Below, piece after piece: positions 5,893 to 8,460 of a stretch of DNA of 64,000 nucleotides (the stretch's first letter is position 1; each line of letters starts with the position of its first letter). Source of the stretch: an uncultured Chloroflexia bacterium (GTDB lineage Bacteria > Chloroflexota > Dehalococcoidia > SM23-28-2); NCBI GenBank assembly GCA_963701285.1, contig OY969584.1:434131-498130 (forward strand), in the 5' to 3' direction. The translations under genes were made by a program, and so were the position numbers. Under the pieces are notes generated by a model that worked only from the letters and a program-made list of their open reading frames with translations, ran no database searches and was not told the origin of the DNA.

Positions 5893-6564
5893 TTACAGCA
5901 GCGTCATCTCCTGGAGGTCCGGCGGCACGATGAGCCGCGCCGGCGTCAGCGCCTGCACCTCCTCCGGCGTCCAGCCGGGCACGATCTCCCGCAGCACCAG
6001 CCCCTCGGGCGTCACGTCCATGACCCCGACGTCGGTGATGATCCGGTCGAGGCAGGCCGGCGCCGTGATCGGCGACGTGCACTCCTTGAGGATCTTCGGC
6101 TCGCCCTCCTTGGTGCTGATGGTCATGAGGGCGATGACCTTCTTGGCGCAGAAGGCCAGGTCCTGGCCCCCGCCAAGGCTGCCGATCTGCTTGCCAGGGA
6201 TGGTGTAGTTGGCCAGGTCCCCCTTCTCCGAGACCTGGAGTCCCCCCAGGATGGTGATATCGATGTGGCCGCCGCGGATGATGCACAGGCTTTCGCCGTG
6301 ATCCATGAACACCATGCCCGGCTTAGGCGACACGGGCTGCACGCCGGCGTTGATCAGGTTGACGTCGGCCTCGTCCGGGTTGTCGATGATCGGCCCGAAG
6401 CCCAGCACCCCGTTCTCCGAATGGAAGAGGATCTCGATGTCCGGCGGCACGAAGTTGCTGCACAAGGTGGGCATGCCCACCCCCAGGTTGATGACCATGC
6501 CGTCCTGGAACTCCTTGGCGGCCCGAATGGCCATGGTTTGCTCGTCCAGCCTCTCTCCCGGCAT
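5893..6564 (-). CDS. 3-oxoacid CoA-transferase subunit B
   Basis: INLGVGMPT, SENG (catalytic Glu), LGGLQVS motifs. Confidence 0.92.
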   Translation of the reverse strand: MPGERLDEQTMAIRAAKEFQDGMVINLGVGMPTLCSNFVPPDIEILFHSENGVLGFGPIIDNPDEADVNLINAGVQPVSPKPGMVFMDHGESLCIIRGGHIDITILGGLQVSEKGDLANYTIPGKQIGSLGGGQDLAFCAKKVIALMTISTKEGEPKILKECTSPITAPACLDRIITDVGVMDVTPEGLVLREIVPGWTPEEVQALTPARLIVPPDLQEMTLL

Positions 6565-6583
6565 CGTCCTGCTCCTCCGTTCC

Positions 6584-7345
6584 TCACATCGGCTCGTTCC
6601 AGGGCCGCGGTTCCGCGGGCCGCACCACGACCCGCTGCACGTAAACCCCCGGCGTGATGATGGCTTCGGGGTCCAGCTCGCCCAGCTCCACCACCTCGTC
6701 CACCTCGGCCACCGTTACCCGCGCGGCGCCGGCCATGACCGGGTTGAAGGTGCGCGAGGTGCCGCAGTAGACCAGGTTGCCATAGCGGTCGGCCTTATGG
6801 GCGCGGATGAGGGCGAAGTCGCTGGGGAGGGCGTGTTCCAGCAGGTGCTTTCGCCCGTTGAACTCGCGCACCTCTTTCCCCTTCTCCACGACAGTGCCCG
6901 CGCCCACCGGCGTGTAGAAGGCGGCGATGCCGCTCTTCGCCGCGCGGATGCGCTCGCAGAGGGTGCCCTGGCCCAGGAGCTCCAGCTCTACGTCGCCGGC
7001 CAGCACCCCCCGCTCGAAGGGGGTCAGGATGCGGGCCGGCGCCGCCGGGAACGACAGGATGCCCTTCCTCACCTGGCCGCGCTCGACCAGCAGACCCGGG
7101 TCGTACCAATCGGGAGGCATCTTCAGGATCACGGCCATGCGGGTGCGCAGGACCTCCAGGAGCTGCTCGCCCCAGCCGCCGGTGTTGCCCACGATGGTCA
7201 GCGCCTTGACCCCCTTGCGGGCCACGGCGGCGACCAGGTAGCTGGGACACTCGCCGGGCCCGCCGAAGCCGCCGATAAGGACGGTCGAACCGTCGGCCAT
7301 GTCGCCCACGGCTTCGTCGAAGCTGCCCACGATCTTGTTTATCAT
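6584..7345 (-). CDS. 3-oxoacid CoA-transferase subunit A
   Basis: GGFGGPG.P, QGTLCERIRA, FYTPVGAGT and KADRYGNL motifs; adjacent to subunit B. Confidence 0.92.
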   Translation of the reverse strand: MINKIVGSFDEAVGDMADGSTVLIGGFGGPGECPSYLVAAVARKGVKALTIVGNTGGWGEQLLEVLRTRMAVILKMPPDWYDPGLLVERGQVRKGILSFPAAPARILTPFERGVLAGDVELELLGQGTLCERIRAAKSGIAAFYTPVGAGTVVEKGKEVREFNGRKHLLEHALPSDFALIRAHKADRYGNLVYCGTSRTFNPVMAGAARVTVAEVDEVVELGELDPEAIITPGVYVQRVVVRPAEPRPWNEPM

Positions 7346-7397
7346 CAGCGCCGCCCTCCCCTCATGGGAATCCTGCCTGCCGGCGGTGAAACACCCA

Positions 7398-7445
7398 TAG
7401 GATGGGGGAAAGGCTTTGACCTGTCAAGAAAGGATATACTACGAT
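7398..7445. promoter_or_regulatory. Overlapping divergent promoters (CoA-transferase on minus, FTR on plus)
   Basis: TTGACCTGTCAA provides back-to-back -35 boxes; plus strand TTGACC-N18-TACGAT, minus strand TTGACA-N17-CATCCT. Confidence 0.5.
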
Positions 7446-7468
7446 CTACTTGGCTAGAGAGGAACACC

Positions 7469-7894
7469 ATGCCCGATAAGACCATCACCTTCGAAGAGGC
7501 CCTCCAGCGGGCCAAGCGCATGTCCGAGCGCTACGTGGAGCGGGGGCCCTACCGCTTCTTCCCCCAGCCGGAGATCGTCGATGAGGTGCAGGGGGGGCTG
7601 GCCAAGAACCTGGTCGCCCACGGCCACCTGTTCTGCCCCTGAATGACCCTCAGCGGCGATCCCGTGGAGGATCGCAAGAAGATCTGCCCCTGCGAGCGCC
7701 ATCACGAGGACATCGCCCGTGACGGCTACTGCATCTGAATGTTCTTTGTGAGCGAAGAGTTTCTTCGCCGCTACGAGGAGACGGGGGAGGTCACCCCCAG
7801 CACCCTGGGCGAGGTCGCCCCCCTCGGCGAGAGCCTCTTCCCCGCCGGCGCGGAGGCCGAGCGCCTGCCCAAGAGCAAACGCGGGCCCCGCTGA
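7469..7894 (+). CDS. ftrC: Ferredoxin:thioredoxin reductase catalytic subunit-like protein with two in-frame UGA codons (predicted selenoprotein, 141 aa)
   Basis: ATG at 7469 with a GAGAGGA RBS; translates MPDK...GLAKNLVAHGHLFCP-U58-MTLSGDPVEDRKKICPCERHHEDIARDGYCI-U90-MFFVSEEF...; matches the FTR CPC/CPC/CHC triad with TGA at 7640 and 7736; a hairpin follows each TGA. Confidence 0.88.
7656..7675 (+). promoter_or_regulatory. Putative bacterial SECIS element for UGA 7640-7642
   Basis: GCGATCC-CGTGGA-GGATCGC, a perfect 7-bp stem starting 13 nt after the UGA, with GU in the loop. Confidence 0.75.
7752..7768 (+). promoter_or_regulatory. Putative bacterial SECIS element for UGA 7736-7738
   Basis: GCGAAGA-GTT-TCTTCGC, a perfect 7-bp stem starting 13 nt after the UGA, with GU in the loop. 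Confidence 0.75.
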
Positions 7895-7901
7895 GCAACT
7901 G

Positions 7902-7927
7902 GTAGGGGCGCAGCGAGCAGCGCCCCG
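7902..7927. repeat. GTAG-type REP-like palindrome
   Basis: GTAGGGGCGC...GCGCCCCG hairpin directly after the FTR stop codon. Confidence 0.5.
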
Positions 7928-7938
7928 TTGGGCCGCCC

Positions 7939-7979
7939 CAAACACAAACAAAGGCCGCTGAGGGCCTCTCAGCGGCCTT
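7939..7979 (-). terminator. Rho-independent terminator (possibly bidirectional) between the FTR gene and the desulforedoxin-like pair
   Basis: 12-bp stem AAGGCCGCTGAG/CTCAGCGGCCTT followed on the minus strand by TGTTTGTGTTTG. Confidence 0.8.
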
Positions 7980-8001
7980 CTCCGTTGTCGCAGGGCCGGC
8001 C

Positions 8002-8145
8002 TTAGTCAGCCGAGGGCAGAACCTTGGGCTGGAGCAGCTTCATAGGGGTGCCGCAACAGTTCACACTGCCCTCGCCCGGCTTGATGCACAGCACCTCGGT
8101 GCCGCAGACCTCACACTGGAATCGCTTTCCCAGCTGGTTTGGCAT
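8002..8145 (-). CDS. Desulforedoxin-like small iron/zinc protein (47 aa), absent from the ORF track
   Basis: MPNQLGKRFQCEVCGTEVLCIKPGEGSVNCCGTPMKLLQPKVLPSAD; CxxC...CC as in desulforedoxin; GGAGGTGG RBS. Confidence 0.85.
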   Translation of the reverse strand: MPNQLGKRFQCEVCGTEVLCIKPGEGSVNCCGTPMKLLQPKVLPSAD

Positions 8146-8157
8146 GCTCCACCTCCG

Positions 8158-8277
8158 TCACTGCTTCAGTTGCATGGGCTGATCGCAGCAGGAGAGGTTT
8201 CCTTGTCCGCCCTTGGTGACTATCATCTCCGTGCCACACTTGGTGCACAGATAGCGCTTGCCTGTCTGGTTGGCCAC
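8158..8277 (-). CDS. Desulforedoxin-like small iron/zinc protein (39 aa), absent from the ORF track
   Basis: MANQTGKRYLCTKCGTEMIVTKGGQGNLSCCDQPMQLKQ; CxxC...CC; GTG start with a GAGGAGA RBS. Confidence 0.85.
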   Translation of the reverse strand: MANQTGKRYLCTKCGTEMIVTKGGQGNLSCCDQPMQLKQ

Positions 8278-8337
8278 TCTCCTCACCCTCCGTCGGGCAC
8301 CCGGGCCCCCGATGTGTAGCCCCGCACCGGCCGCCCA

Positions 8338-8366
8338 AGTCTAGCGCGATCCAGAATAGCAGTCAA
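8338..8366 (-). promoter_or_regulatory. sigma70-type promoter of the desulforedoxin-like pair
   Basis: TTGACT-N17-TAGACT on the minus strand. Confidence 0.65.
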
Positions 8367-8460
8367 TCCCGCGATCTGCCCTCGGCCGCTTCGTGGGCCG
8401 GTGGCCATCCCCAACCCCGGCCTAACGGCCGGTGCCCCATTCCCTCCGGTGCCCCAGGCT

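What the first reader, a model, noticed from the sequence alone, without database searches (positions are those of the whole stretch)
7469..7894. Hidden ferredoxin:thioredoxin reductase with both catalytic cysteines encoded by UGA (predicted diselenide FTR)
Seen: an RBS-led ORF reads ...HLFC56-P-TGA58...KIC73-P-C75...GYC88-I-TGA90-MFFV... and continues to a stop at 7892. The ORF track breaks it up, so it would normally go unannotated. Established: the FTR catalytic chain has CPC, CPC and CHC motifs; in Synechocystis numbering C55/C74/C76/C85 bind the [4Fe-4S] cluster and C57/C87 form the redox-active disulfide. Here the four ligand cysteines are ordinary TGC, and exactly the two disulfide positions are TGA. 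Random nonsense mutations or sequencing errors are very unlikely to hit just those two. The His of CHC is replaced by Ile. Inference: a two-Sec enzyme with a Se-Se bond beside an Fe-S cluster, with one Se able to act as the transient fifth iron ligand. I recall FTR being listed among Sec-containing families in metagenomic surveys, but I do not know of a characterised double-Sec form; novelty needs a literature check.
Basis: partly seen in the sequence, partly recalled or inferred. Interest (0 to 1): 0.93.

Follow-up and report, generated by a model that had tools for sequence, protein, structure and literature searches.

The report
Known double-selenocysteine ferredoxin:thioredoxin reductase gene
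This is a real gene for a small iron-sulfur disulfide reductase whose two redox-active cysteines are both replaced by selenocysteine, but the family was predicted in 2008 and is already curated, so it is a good catch and not a discovery.

Summary
Window 7469-7894 (+) reads as a 141-residue FTR catalytic-chain homologue with in-frame TGA at codons 58 and 90. An alignment to the Synechocystis enzyme puts these at the two redox-active cysteines (C57, C87); the four cluster ligands are ordinary Cys.

It scores 218.8 bits (cut-off 160) against NCBIfam NF041072, "FtrB family double-selenoprotein". Both TGAs are kept in 80 of 80 related loci from Dehalococcoidia/Chloroflexota genomes, and the frame stays under purifying selection after each TGA. 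Each TGA is followed at the same spacing by a conserved hairpin with suppressed synonymous change (SECIS candidates).

The genome holds tRNA-Sec, selA and a Sec-containing selD. Its selB carries one frameshift in this assembly, unresolved; it is intact in 5 of 5 relatives.

A double-Sec FTR at exactly these positions was reported by Zhang and Gladyshev (2008) and appears in a 2026 review. I found no biochemical study in six literature searches.

New here:
- Gene callers split the gene into fragments.
- In 46 of 55 more distant lineages it is followed by a Sec-glutaredoxin gene (UGPC motif).
- In the window's clade it instead faces two desulforedoxin-like genes.

Verdict: real, correctly interpreted, already known. 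Interest 0.3.

The parts
7416..7445 (+). Promoter-like site (TTGACC, 18 nt, TACGAT) just upstream of the gene
   Evidence: Consensus scan: 2 sites found in 7300-8400 against 0.1 expected in shuffles. This is a consensus match only.
7456..7463 (+). Shine-Dalgarno-like AGAGAGGA, 5 nt before the ATG
   Evidence: Read directly.
7469..7894 (+). FtrB-family double-selenoprotein gene: 141 codons including two UGA (Sec), then a TGA stop
   Evidence: NF041072, 218.8 bits against cut-off 160. The start position is shared by 14 orthologues.
7634..7636 (+). Cys56 codon (TGC); aligns to cluster ligand C55 of Synechocystis FTR
   Evidence: Invariant in 66 of 66 aligned sequences.
7640..7642 (+). UGA codon 58 = predicted Sec; aligns to the exposed redox-active Cys (C57)
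   Evidence: TGA in 80 of 80 related loci. Cys in 54 of 55 Cys-type homologues.
7656..7675 (+). SECIS candidate 1: stem 7656-7662 / 7669-7675 (GCGAUCC / GGAUCGC), 6-nt loop CGUGGA, starting 17 nt from the U of UGA-58
   Evidence: 497 of 518 pair cells are standard pairs in 74 distinct sequences. Synonymous sites are frozen.
7685..7693 (+). Cys73-Pro-Cys75 (cluster ligands; align to C74/C76)
7730..7732 (+). Cys88 codon (cluster ligand; aligns to C85)
7733..7735 (+). Ile89 in place of the His of the classical C-H-C motif
   Evidence: Ile in 80 of 80 related loci. This column is His in only 16 of 55 Cys-type homologues.
7736..7738 (+). UGA codon 90 = predicted Sec; aligns to the cluster-proximal redox-active Cys (C87)
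   Evidence: TGA in 80 of 80. Cys in 55 of 55 Cys-type homologues.
7752..7768 (+). SECIS candidate 2: stem 7752-7757 / 7763-7768 (GCGAAG / CUUCGC), loop AGUUU, also starting 17 nt from the U of UGA-90
   Evidence: 432 of 432 pair cells are standard pairs in 72 distinct sequences, including one G-C to A-U double change.
7787..7891 (+). C-terminal tail (residues 107-141): low-confidence in the model but conserved in sequence, ending in the clade-specific R-L-P-K-S-K-R-G-P
   Evidence: pLDDT 53-60. Conserved in 14 orthologues. The end motif is absent from the more distant double-Sec lineages.
7950..7980 (.). 13-bp G+C-rich hairpin between the convergent genes. It is terminator-like with a T-tail on the minus strand and probably serves both directions
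   Evidence: (z = -2.58 for 7892-7985).
8002..8145 (-). Desulforedoxin-like gene 1 (47 aa; CxxC...CC; conserved C-terminal QPKVLPSAD), convergent with the FtrB gene
   Evidence: Pfam PF06397, E 1.7e-08. Present next to FtrB in 14 of 14 close loci and 24 of 25 of the window's clade, but in 0 of 55 more distant loci.
8158..8286 (-). Desulforedoxin-like gene 2 (39-42 aa; start uncertain)
   Evidence: Pfam PF06397, E 1.9e-09. Present in 13 of 14 close loci; the 14th contig ends first.

Best explanation
Window 7469-7894 encodes a stand-alone, FTR-like ferredoxin-dependent disulfide reductase of the curated family NF041072 (FtrB family double-selenoprotein). SelB and tRNA-Sec recode both in-frame UGAs as selenocysteine, each with the help of its own hairpin that starts 17 nt from the UGA. 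Four ordinary cysteines (C56, C73, C75, C88) hold a [4Fe-4S] cluster. U58 and U90 take the places of the redox-active disulfide and so would form a diselenide beside the cluster.

By analogy with FTR, one electron from a low-potential donor cleaves the Se-Se bond. U90 then stays on the cluster iron, and the exposed U58 selenolate attacks the disulfide (or selenenylsulfide) of a small thioredoxin-fold substrate. A second electron releases the reduced substrate.

Shown here: family membership, position of the UGAs, conservation of the full reading frame, conserved hairpins, and presence of most of the Sec machinery. Inferred: Sec insertion itself, the cluster, the Se-Se bond, the Fe-Se intermediate, and the identity of donor and substrate.
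For: - Family: NCBIfam NF041072, 218.8 bits against cut-off 160, covering profile positions 1-121 of 121. Pfam PF02943, E 1.9e-18.
- Fold: AF2 model with pLDDT 97-99 over residues 1-106. Foldseek gives probability 1.00 to 7pwe, 4tpu (rmsd 1.8 over 88 columns) and 1dj7.
- Position of the UGAs: on the two redox-active Cys columns.
- Conservation of the UGAs: TGA+TGA in 14 of 14 and 80 of 80 loci, while the terminal stops vary.
- Coding signal after the UGAs, as variable columns at codon positions 1/2/3: before U58 26/20/47 of 56; between the UGAs 4/4/18 of 31; after U90 23/21/42 of 53.
- Hairpins: same spacing after both UGAs. Standard pairs in 497 of 518 and 432 of 432 cells. Codon-invariant at 10 of 11 amino-acid-invariant degenerate codons inside the hairpins, against 15 of 63 outside (Fisher p = 3.9e-5).
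- Sec/Cys alternation: single-Sec forms at either column (L043 CPU...CRC; L066 CPC...CYU; L069 CPC...CHU) and Cys at both in 54-55 of 55 homologues.
- Machinery in the same genome: tRNA-Sec 78.5 bits with anticodon tca; selA 554.3 bits; selD 365.8 bits with its own in-frame TGA.
- Environmental contigs: pieces from DNA libraries (X2, many short pieces) and single RNA-library contigs (X15 record 4, 7400-7842; X16 record 10, 7601-7876) cover both TGA places, with no difference listed at either TGA.
Against: - selB of this genome is split between two frames by one frameshift. If that is real and not an assembly error, this strain cannot insert Sec.
- There is no protein-level evidence anywhere.
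- The hairpins match no Rfam family.
- Hairpin 1 has 21 unpaired cells of 518.
- The hairpin limits used in the synonymous-site test came from the same sequences, and the sequences are kin, so the p-value overstates.
- Two relatives carry decayed copies (G002: only residues 32-80, with CSC for CPC; G012: an in-frame TAG), so the gene is dispensable in some lineages.
- Contigs from an RNA library do not prove transcription, and 7 rows of the difference table were not shown.
Confidence: 0.88

Rival explanations
1. The gene family is a real double selenoprotein, but in this particular genome Sec decoding has just been lost: selB is frameshifted, so translation stops at UGA-58 and the gene is functionally dead here.
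For: selB matches in two frames with the switch near L010 1862-1866. Relatives G005, G009, G017, G028 and G035 all have an uninterrupted selB above the cut-off (5 of 5).
Against: Apart from the one shift, selB is intact over its whole length and 71-86% identical to a relative's SelB, with no stops. selD keeps its in-frame TGA. The FtrB gene shows no decay. A one-base indel is the usual assembly error of a single-contig assembly that scores only 90.76% complete.
Confidence: 0.08
2. The UGAs are not read as Sec. Either translation terminates and restarts at the AUG that directly follows each UGA, giving three peptides, or UGA is read as another residue through read-through or an altered code.
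For: Both UGAs are followed at once by AUG, in 81 of 81 and 80 of 81 sequences. Gene callers do emit the 51-56-residue piece that starts at Met91 (P0062, P0085, P0127).
Against: TGA also serves as the true terminal stop of this gene and of 13 of 80 relatives, so the code is not reassigned. Pieces lacking the two active-site residues could not form the redox centre. The genome carries dedicated Sec machinery, and both sites carry conserved hairpins at SECIS-like spacing. Met also follows the C-H-C motif in the classical FTR chains, so Met91 has an ordinary explanation at the protein level.
Confidence: 0.03
3. It is a pseudogene or a sequencing error: two chance nonsense changes in a former Cys-type FTR gene.
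For: Nothing beyond the bare presence of two stop codons. Two relatives do carry decayed copies.
Against: TGA, never TAA or TAG, is at both columns in 80 of 80 loci from separate assemblies. There is a codon-position signature of purifying selection after each TGA. Independent environmental contigs keep both TGAs.
Confidence: 0.01

Closest known systems
NCBIfam NF041072 'FtrB family double-selenoprotein' / the double-Sec FTR homologue found in Global Ocean Sampling reads (Zhang and Gladyshev 2008, PMC2398784)
   Same: The protein scores well above the model's curated cut-off over the whole profile. [quoted passage not shown] The 2026 review lists NF041072 with motif CxU and 2 Sec (passage read).
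   Different: Nothing essential; this is a member. I could not compare it with the GOS read itself, because supplements are closed. The papers, as far as I read them, give no taxonomic home, no gene neighbourhood and no biochemistry.
Ferredoxin-dependent disulfide reductase (FDR) of Methanosarcina acetivorans, PDB 4tpu
   Same: Best sequence match among solved structures (E 1.1e-11) and a close fold match (rmsd 1.8 over 88 columns). Same CPC...CPC...CxC layout, without the His. No variable subunit.
   Different: 4tpu has Cys at both redox positions and a fused C-terminal rubredoxin domain, as do most Cys-type homologues in the same class. The window protein has two Sec and, in place of rubredoxin, a 35-residue tail that the model does not fold.
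Glutaredoxin/FDR fusion protein of Desulfotalea psychrophila, PDB 7pwe
   Same: Top Foldseek hit (E 6.6e-07) and second-best sequence hit. It links an FDR domain physically to a glutaredoxin. That parallels the Sec-glutaredoxin gene placed directly after double-Sec ftrB in 46 of 55 distant lineages and the FDR-Grx-Grx fusions L043 and P0025.
   Different: It is fused, it is Cys-type, and it comes from a different phylum. The window's own gene has no glutaredoxin gene next to it.
Classical ferredoxin:thioredoxin reductase catalytic chain (Synechocystis 1dj7; plant 7bzk)
   Same: Same Pfam family, same fold (rmsd 2.2-2.4 over about 91 columns) and same six-residue redox/cluster pattern.
   Different: Only a weak sequence match (E 0.0017-0.02). 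His of C-H-C is Ile. No variable-subunit gene (PF02941) was found in the genome (genome 90.76% complete). The organism belongs to a non-photosynthetic class.
Tandem use of selenocysteine: Sec-glutaredoxin reducing Sec-MsrA in Clostridium (Kim et al. 2011; seen only as reference 85 and one sentence of PMC13188914)
   Same: A precedent for a selenoprotein reductase working on a selenoprotein partner. The ftrB(UU)-grx(UGPC) gene pairs suggest the same arrangement.
   Different: Different enzymes and no Fe-S cluster. The pairing here is inferred from gene order only, and only in relatives of the window's genome.

Membership tests
NCBIfam NF041072 FtrB_double_U (equivalog) | Full-length score above the curated cut-off | tested here: met
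   218.8 bits against 160, E 1.1e-65, profile positions 1-121 of 121. The genome search gives 207.9 bits with '2 TGA'.
NCBIfam NF041072 FtrB_double_U (equivalog) | In-frame UGA at both redox-active Cys columns, with ordinary Cys at the four ligand columns | tested here: met
   Also 80 of 80 relatives.
Bacterial selenoprotein (any) | Genome encodes tRNA-Sec, SelA, SelB and SelD | tested here: inconclusive
   tRNA-Sec, selA and selD are all above their cut-offs. selB is full-length but interrupted by one frameshift in this assembly. It is intact in 5 of 5 relatives.
Bacterial selenoprotein (any) | Stem-loop (SECIS) shortly downstream of each UGA | tested here: met
   A hairpin starts 17 nt from each UGA. 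Pairs are kept in 96% and 100% of cells across 74 and 72 distinct sequences, and synonymous change is suppressed. G is the second loop base in both; that this matters for bacterial SECIS is recalled, not tested. No Rfam match. Binding to SelB is not testable here.
Bacterial selenoprotein (any) | Cys-containing homologues at the Sec column | tested here: met
   Cys in 54 of 55 and 55 of 55 homologues. Single-Sec intermediates occur at either column.
FTR catalytic chain (Pfam PF02943) | Pfam match and FTR fold | tested here: met
   66.9 bits against 22. Foldseek probability 1.00 to 1dj7, 2puk, 7bzk, 4tpu and 7pwe.
Classical (cyanobacterial/plastid) FTR | C-H-C motif with catalytic His | tested here: not met
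   Ile89. Ile in 80 of 80 relatives.
Classical (cyanobacterial/plastid) FTR | Heterodimer with a variable subunit (PF02941) | tested here: not met
   No match in the genome, while the control rang in Synechococcus. The genome is 90.76% complete, so absence is not proven.
FDR-type enzymes (4tpu, 7pwe) | FTR-like domain fused to a rubredoxin or glutaredoxin domain | tested here: not met
   The protein is stand-alone at 141 residues. The tail 107-141 has no family match and pLDDT 53-60.
FTR/FDR enzymes in general | [4Fe-4S] cluster; ferredoxin-dependent reduction of a thioredoxin-fold disulfide | not testable with these tools
   Only the four ligand Cys are seen.

The most novel reading that the evidence does not exclude
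The double-Sec FtrB may be the entry point of an all-selenium redox relay that has not been described. In most Dehalococcoidia/SAR202-type lineages it is co-operonic with an ~80-residue glutaredoxin whose active site is U-G-P-C (46 of 55 loci). Electrons would then pass from the [4Fe-4S] cluster to a Se-Se bond and on to a Se-S centre, with an intermolecular Se-Se intermediate. The window's clade has lost that neighbour. It has gained a clade-specific basic tail (R-L-P-K-S-K-R-G-P) and a tightly linked pair of desulforedoxin-like genes. These may replace, in trans, the rubredoxin domain that is fused to Cys-type relatives. The family would also be the first natural enzyme with a diselenide next to an Fe-S cluster to be studied, since I found no biochemistry in print.
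Probability: 0.3. Interest if true: 0.55.

Novelty: already known. Interest (0 to 1): 0.3.

Why it matters
A diselenide in place of the FTR disulfide, in contact with a [4Fe-4S] cluster, is unusual chemistry. It implies a lower reduction potential, a far better nucleophile and leaving group, and an Fe-Se bonded intermediate. As far as my searches reach, it has only ever been predicted.

This case places the family firmly in uncultured Dehalococcoidia, including SAR202-type lineages. It also shows that the gene is systematically split by gene callers: a library of 1.84 billion predicted proteins holds it only as fragments. The gene order in relatives gives testable partners, a Sec-glutaredoxin in most lineages and desulforedoxin-like proteins in this clade.

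For annotation, the practical value is that the curated model finds the gene. As a discovery it adds little, because the family is known.

Tried and rejected
Rfam scan of 7400-8000 at E up to 10: no SECIS family, only chance-level hits.

Single-sequence folding gave weak signals: the z-score was 0.03 for the stretch after UGA-58 and -1.38 after UGA-90. The case for the hairpins therefore rests on comparison, not on folding energy.

Sequencing runs:
- No run holds more than 0.29 of the sampled words, so the source strain is not among them, and no habitat is claimed from these shares.
- I had planned a read-level check of the selB frameshift. That was not possible, because the single read-laying run went to the gene itself.
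- Parts of the stretch without cover in X1 (7666 onward) mean nothing.

An evenly drawn phylum sample of 401 genomes found only the window's own genome above the NF041072 cut-off. This looked like a very narrow distribution, but the pattern scan of the whole genome collection corrected it: 188 relatives, the best 80 of them all double-TGA.

From flanks of 1500 nt I first read the FtrB-desulforedoxin adjacency as a module independent of its surroundings. Longer flanks showed that the wider region is syntenic within the order, with the HD/7TM and YqeY genes upstream and the Rieske/cytochrome b genes downstream. The wider scan showed the adjacency only in the window's clade. I therefore demoted it to a lead.

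Literature:
- No paper held 'SAR202' together with 'selenoprotein'.
- 'UGPC' with 'glutaredoxin' returned only papers on the unrelated ugpC gene.
- 'ferredoxin disulfide reductase' or 'Desulfotalea psychrophila', and thioredoxin reductase + rubredoxin + Methanosarcina acetivorans + ferredoxin, gave nothing on FDR enzymes. The primary papers for 4tpu and 7pwe were not seen.
- That no biochemical study of a double-Sec FTR is in print rests only. Those searches cover open-access text and not supplements, which were closed.
Full report
**1. The observation**

An ATG at 7469 lies 5 nt behind AGAGAGGA. A promoter-like site sits at 7416-7445. Read with TGA as U, the frame runs 141 codons to a TGA stop at 7892-7894, with in-frame TGA at codons 58 (7640-7642) and 90 (7736-7738). 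The local motifs are C56-P-U58, C73-P-C75 and C88-I-U90.

The mechanical ORF list does break the gene up. It shows only a 51-codon piece at 7739..7894, plus a long same-frame ORF 6305..7642 that ends at the first TGA.

**2. What it is**

- Pfam gives PF02943, the FTR catalytic beta chain (E 1.9e-18).
- NCBIfam gives NF041072.1, "FtrB family double-selenoprotein", an equivalog model. The score is 218.8 bits against a curated cut-off of 160, over the full profile.
- Among solved structures, the best sequence matches are the ferredoxin-dependent disulfide reductase of Methanosarcina acetivorans (4tpu, E 1.1e-11) and the glutaredoxin/FDR fusion of Desulfotalea psychrophila (7pwe, E 5.9e-10). The classical FTR chains match far more weakly (E 0.0017-0.04).
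- The alignment to the Synechocystis chain 1dj7_A puts U58 and U90 on the second Cys of the first C-P-C and of C-H-C, that is chain positions 57 and 87. The four TGC cysteines fall on positions 55, 74, 76 and 85.
- An AlphaFold2 model built on a 66-sequence alignment is very confident for residues 1-106 (pLDDT 97-99) and not for the tail 107-141 (53-60). Foldseek returns 7pwe, 4tpu (rmsd 1.8 over 88 columns) and eight classical FTR chains (four at E <= 0.001), and nothing else below E = 1.

**3. Are the UGAs decoded?**

*Relatives in the first search.* Of 41 related genomes (G000 included), 17 had a match.
- 14 were full-length and above the cut-off, and all 14 carried "2 TGA".
- One gene was split over two contig ends, each piece keeping its TGA.
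- Two copies look decayed. G002 has only residues 32-80, with CSC for CPC. G012 has an in-frame TAG.

*Coding signal in the 14 full-length genes.* Nucleotide identity among them is 72-96%. Both columns are TGA in 14 of 14. Variable columns at codon positions 1/2/3 are:
- before U58: 26/20/47 of 56
- between the UGAs: 4/4/18 of 31
- after U90: 23/21/42 of 53

So the frame after each TGA evolves like coding sequence.

*Wider scan.* A pattern scan of one genome per species (185,579 species) found 188 relatives. The best 80 were kept.
- All 80 have TGA at both columns and Ile between C88 and U90.
- Their terminal stops are TAG 42, TAA 25 and TGA 13.
- These 80 come from the same genome collection as the 14 above and largely include them, so the two counts are not independent.
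- Most record titles read Dehalococcoidia bacterium. The rest read Chloroflexota or Chloroflexi bacterium, SAR202 cluster bacterium (2), Dehalococcoidales (1), Thermoflexus sp. (1) and "uncultured bacterium" (1). This is my reading of the table.

*Environmental contigs.* No run holds the strain itself; the best share of sampled words is 0.29. Laid at 80% likeness, DNA contig pieces of X2 and single RNA-library contigs of X15 (record 4, 7400-7842) and X16 (record 10, 7601-7876) cover both TGA places. No difference is listed at 7640-7642 or 7736-7738. A near-identical DNA piece of X1 (7516-7660) covers the first TGA. Two caveats apply: seven rows of the difference table were not shown, and contigs of an RNA library do not prove transcription.

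**4. SECIS candidates**

Each UGA is followed by AUG. A hairpin then starts at the 17th base counted from the U.
- Hairpin 1: GCGAUCC, 6-nt loop, GGAUCGC (7656-7675).
- Hairpin 2: GCGAAG, loop AGUUU, CUUCGC (7752-7768).

Over the window plus 80 loci, hairpin 1 keeps standard pairs in 497 of 518 cells (74 distinct sequences). The losses fall on two A-U pairs. Hairpin 2 keeps 432 of 432 cells (72 distinct sequences). Its changes are 18 one-sided shifts to G-U and one double change from G-C to A-U.

The stems encode conserved residues, so I tested synonymous sites in the 14 close sequences. Among codons whose amino acid never changes and which have synonyms, 10 of 11 inside the hairpins are codon-invariant, against 15 of 63 outside (Fisher p = 3.9e-5). 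The frozen codons (GAT twice, GAA, CTT) are unusual choices for a 64% G+C genome. The p-value overstates the case, because the sequences are kin and the hairpin limits came from the same data. Rfam has no matching family.

**5. Sec machinery**

The window's genome is one contig of 2,656,704 bases, scored 90.76% complete. It holds:
- a tRNA-Sec (78.5 bits against 47; ARAGORN tRNA-SeC with anticodon tca)
- selA (554.3 bits against 267.9)
- selD (365.8 bits against 125) with its own in-frame TGA, in the context A-G-U-A-G-K

selB is present over its full length but in two frames. Residues 3-132 of a relative's SelB align in frame 1 and residues 130-626 in frame 2, at 86% and 71% identity and with no stop. 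The switch lies near L010 1862-1866. Five of five relatives that carry the double-Sec gene have an uninterrupted selB above the cut-off. I read the shift as an assembly error (about 0.85), but I could not test this.

The tRNA-Sec gene lies directly after a thioredoxin gene and a thioredoxin reductase gene. The genome therefore also has the ordinary NADPH-dependent thioredoxin system. It has no second FTR-like gene and no FTR variable-subunit gene.

**6. Sec/Cys alternation**

In a phylum sample of 401 genomes, 30 others had weaker matches to the model.
- Most are Cys-Cys FTR-like domains fused to a C-terminal rubredoxin, as in 4tpu.
- Three are single-Sec forms: L043 (C-P-U ... C-R-C, fused to two glutaredoxin-like domains), L066 (C-P-C ... 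C-Y-U, with rubredoxin) and L069 (C-P-C ... C-H-U).

From the 150 best of 391 hits in a library of 1.84 billion representatives, I chose 55 full-length Cys-type homologues by length and coverage. Column 58 is Cys in 54 of them and column 90 is Cys in all 55. The column of the classical His is His in only 16 of 55. Ile at that position is therefore a subfamily trait and not an anomaly.

**7. State of public annotation**

That library holds no full-length close relative. There are 0 hits at E <= 1e-30, and the best full-length hits are at most 49% identical. Close relatives appear only as fragments.
- Seven entries end at query residue 57. P0014 and P0019 were read and end in ...C-P.
- Three entries start at residue 91. 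P0062 was read and starts at the Met after U90.

NCBI's pipeline has a model for it.

**8. Neighbourhood**

Upstream, on the other strand, lie two CoA-transferase subunit genes, a methyltransferase gene and an amidohydrolase gene. Downstream, convergent and sharing a 13-bp hairpin (7950-7980), lie two small desulforedoxin-like genes at 8002-8145 and 8158-8286 (PF06397, E 1.7e-08 and 1.9e-09). Behind them come Rieske and cytochrome b genes.

The desulforedoxin pair faces ftrB in 14 of 14 (gene 1) and 13 of 14 (gene 2) close loci, and in 24 of 25 loci of the window's clade. It faces ftrB in 0 of 55 more distant double-Sec loci. Longer flanks show that the whole region is syntenic within the order, with insertions. 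The adjacency may therefore be inherited gene order. Its only functional support is the analogy with the rubredoxin fusions.

In the 55 more distant loci, 46 have a different neighbour. Between 13 nt of overlap and 139 nt after the ftrB stop, on the same strand, there is a gene of 78-92 codons for a glutaredoxin-family protein (PF00462, 52.1 bits; below the cut-offs of all specific NCBIfam models) with an in-frame TGA in the motif G-U-G-P-C. Together with the solved Grx/FDR fusion 7pwe and the FDR-Grx fusions L043 and P0025, this points to a glutaredoxin-like protein as the usual substrate of these enzymes.

The window's genome has no close copy of that gene. The best match is a C-P-T-C glutaredoxin-like gene with a TGA three codons before its TAG stop. 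It scores 61.7 bits on the Uxx-star model against a cut-off of 66.

**9. Mechanism**

The steps below are inferred by analogy with FTR. The FTR mechanism itself is recalled; the 2008 paper states only that two Cys form the redox-active disulfide.
1. The four Cys hold a [4Fe-4S] cluster.
2. U58 and U90 form a diselenide beside it.
3. The first electron opens the Se-Se bond, leaving U90 on a cluster iron and U58 as a free selenolate.
4. U58 attacks the substrate's disulfide or selenenylsulfide.
5. The second electron frees U90, which resolves the mixed bond.

Sec is ionised at neutral pH, which fits the loss of the His. The electron donor (a ferredoxin, or the desulforedoxin-like proteins in this clade) and the acceptor in this genome are open. 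The conserved but unfolded tail may be a docking peptide; nothing tests that.

**10. Novelty**

- Zhang and Gladyshev (2008, PMC2398784) reported, among seven new selenoprotein families in ocean metagenome reads, two FTR selenoprotein sequences. [quoted passage not shown]
- The 2022 review lists the family with motif CxU (table passage).
- The 2026 review lists it as NF041072 with 2 Sec (table passage).
- Searches for any biochemical work found none. These cover open-access text only, and supplements were closed.

The finding is therefore real, correctly interpreted and already known as a prediction.

Noticed in passing
L121-L175 (46 of 55 loci), e.g. L157:1929-2180 (+), directly after the double-Sec ftrB: A 78-92-codon glutaredoxin-family gene with an in-frame TGA in a G-U-G-P-C active-site motif is co-oriented with ftrB, between 13 nt of overlap and 139 nt after its stop. 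It scores 52.1 bits on PF00462 but falls below every specific NCBIfam cut-off (best: YruB-family, 72.6 against 88.55). It is absent from the flanks of all 25 loci of the window's clade.
   Followed up: partly
window 8002-8145 (-) and 8158-8286 (-): Two tandem desulforedoxin-like mini-genes (47 and about 40 codons; CxxC...CC) sit at the 3' end of a Rieske/cytochrome b gene row. A promoter-like site of their own lies at 8366-8338. The first carries an invariant C-terminal P-K-V-L-P-S-A-D.
   Followed up: partly
G000:C1:2278771-2280628 (L010 about 1862-1866): selB of the window's genome is full-length but shifted by one base between the GTPase domain and the rest. It is intact in 5 of 5 relatives. 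Assembly error or recent loss is unresolved.
   Followed up: partly
G000:C1:302749-304188 (L001, L079, L087): The thioredoxin gene, the thioredoxin reductase gene (349.7 bits) and the tRNA-Sec gene lie head to tail within 1.5 kb. The tRNA starts 38 nt after the end of the trxB match.
   Followed up: no
L176:1489-1710 (G000:C1, about 1776080-1776301): A 73-codon glutaredoxin-like gene (C-P-T-C) has a TGA three codons before its TAG stop. It scores 61.7 bits on the 'Uxx-star glutaredoxin-like (seleno)protein' model, just under the cut-off of 66. It is possibly a further selenoprotein with one extra residue after the Sec.
   Followed up: partly
L043 (G089) and P0025: These are single-Sec (C-P-U ... 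C-R-C) or Cys-type FTR-like domains fused to two glutaredoxin-like domains whose active sites hold a single Cys (C-P-R-S, C-H-D-V). They are a natural fusion of reductase and presumed substrate in another class of the phylum.
   Followed up: no
window 7643-7645 and 7739-7741, and the same places in 80 related loci: The codon after each UGA is AUG, in 81 of 81 and 80 of 81 sequences. Met after the second site is shared with classical FTR. Met after the first site is specific to the double-Sec family, where Cys-type relatives mostly have Arg. The reason is unknown.
   Followed up: partly
L040 (G002) and L041 (G012): Two close relatives carry decayed copies of the gene: one is a fragment with CSC for CPC, the other has an in-frame TAG. 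The gene has therefore been lost in some lineages of the same genus.
   Followed up: partly
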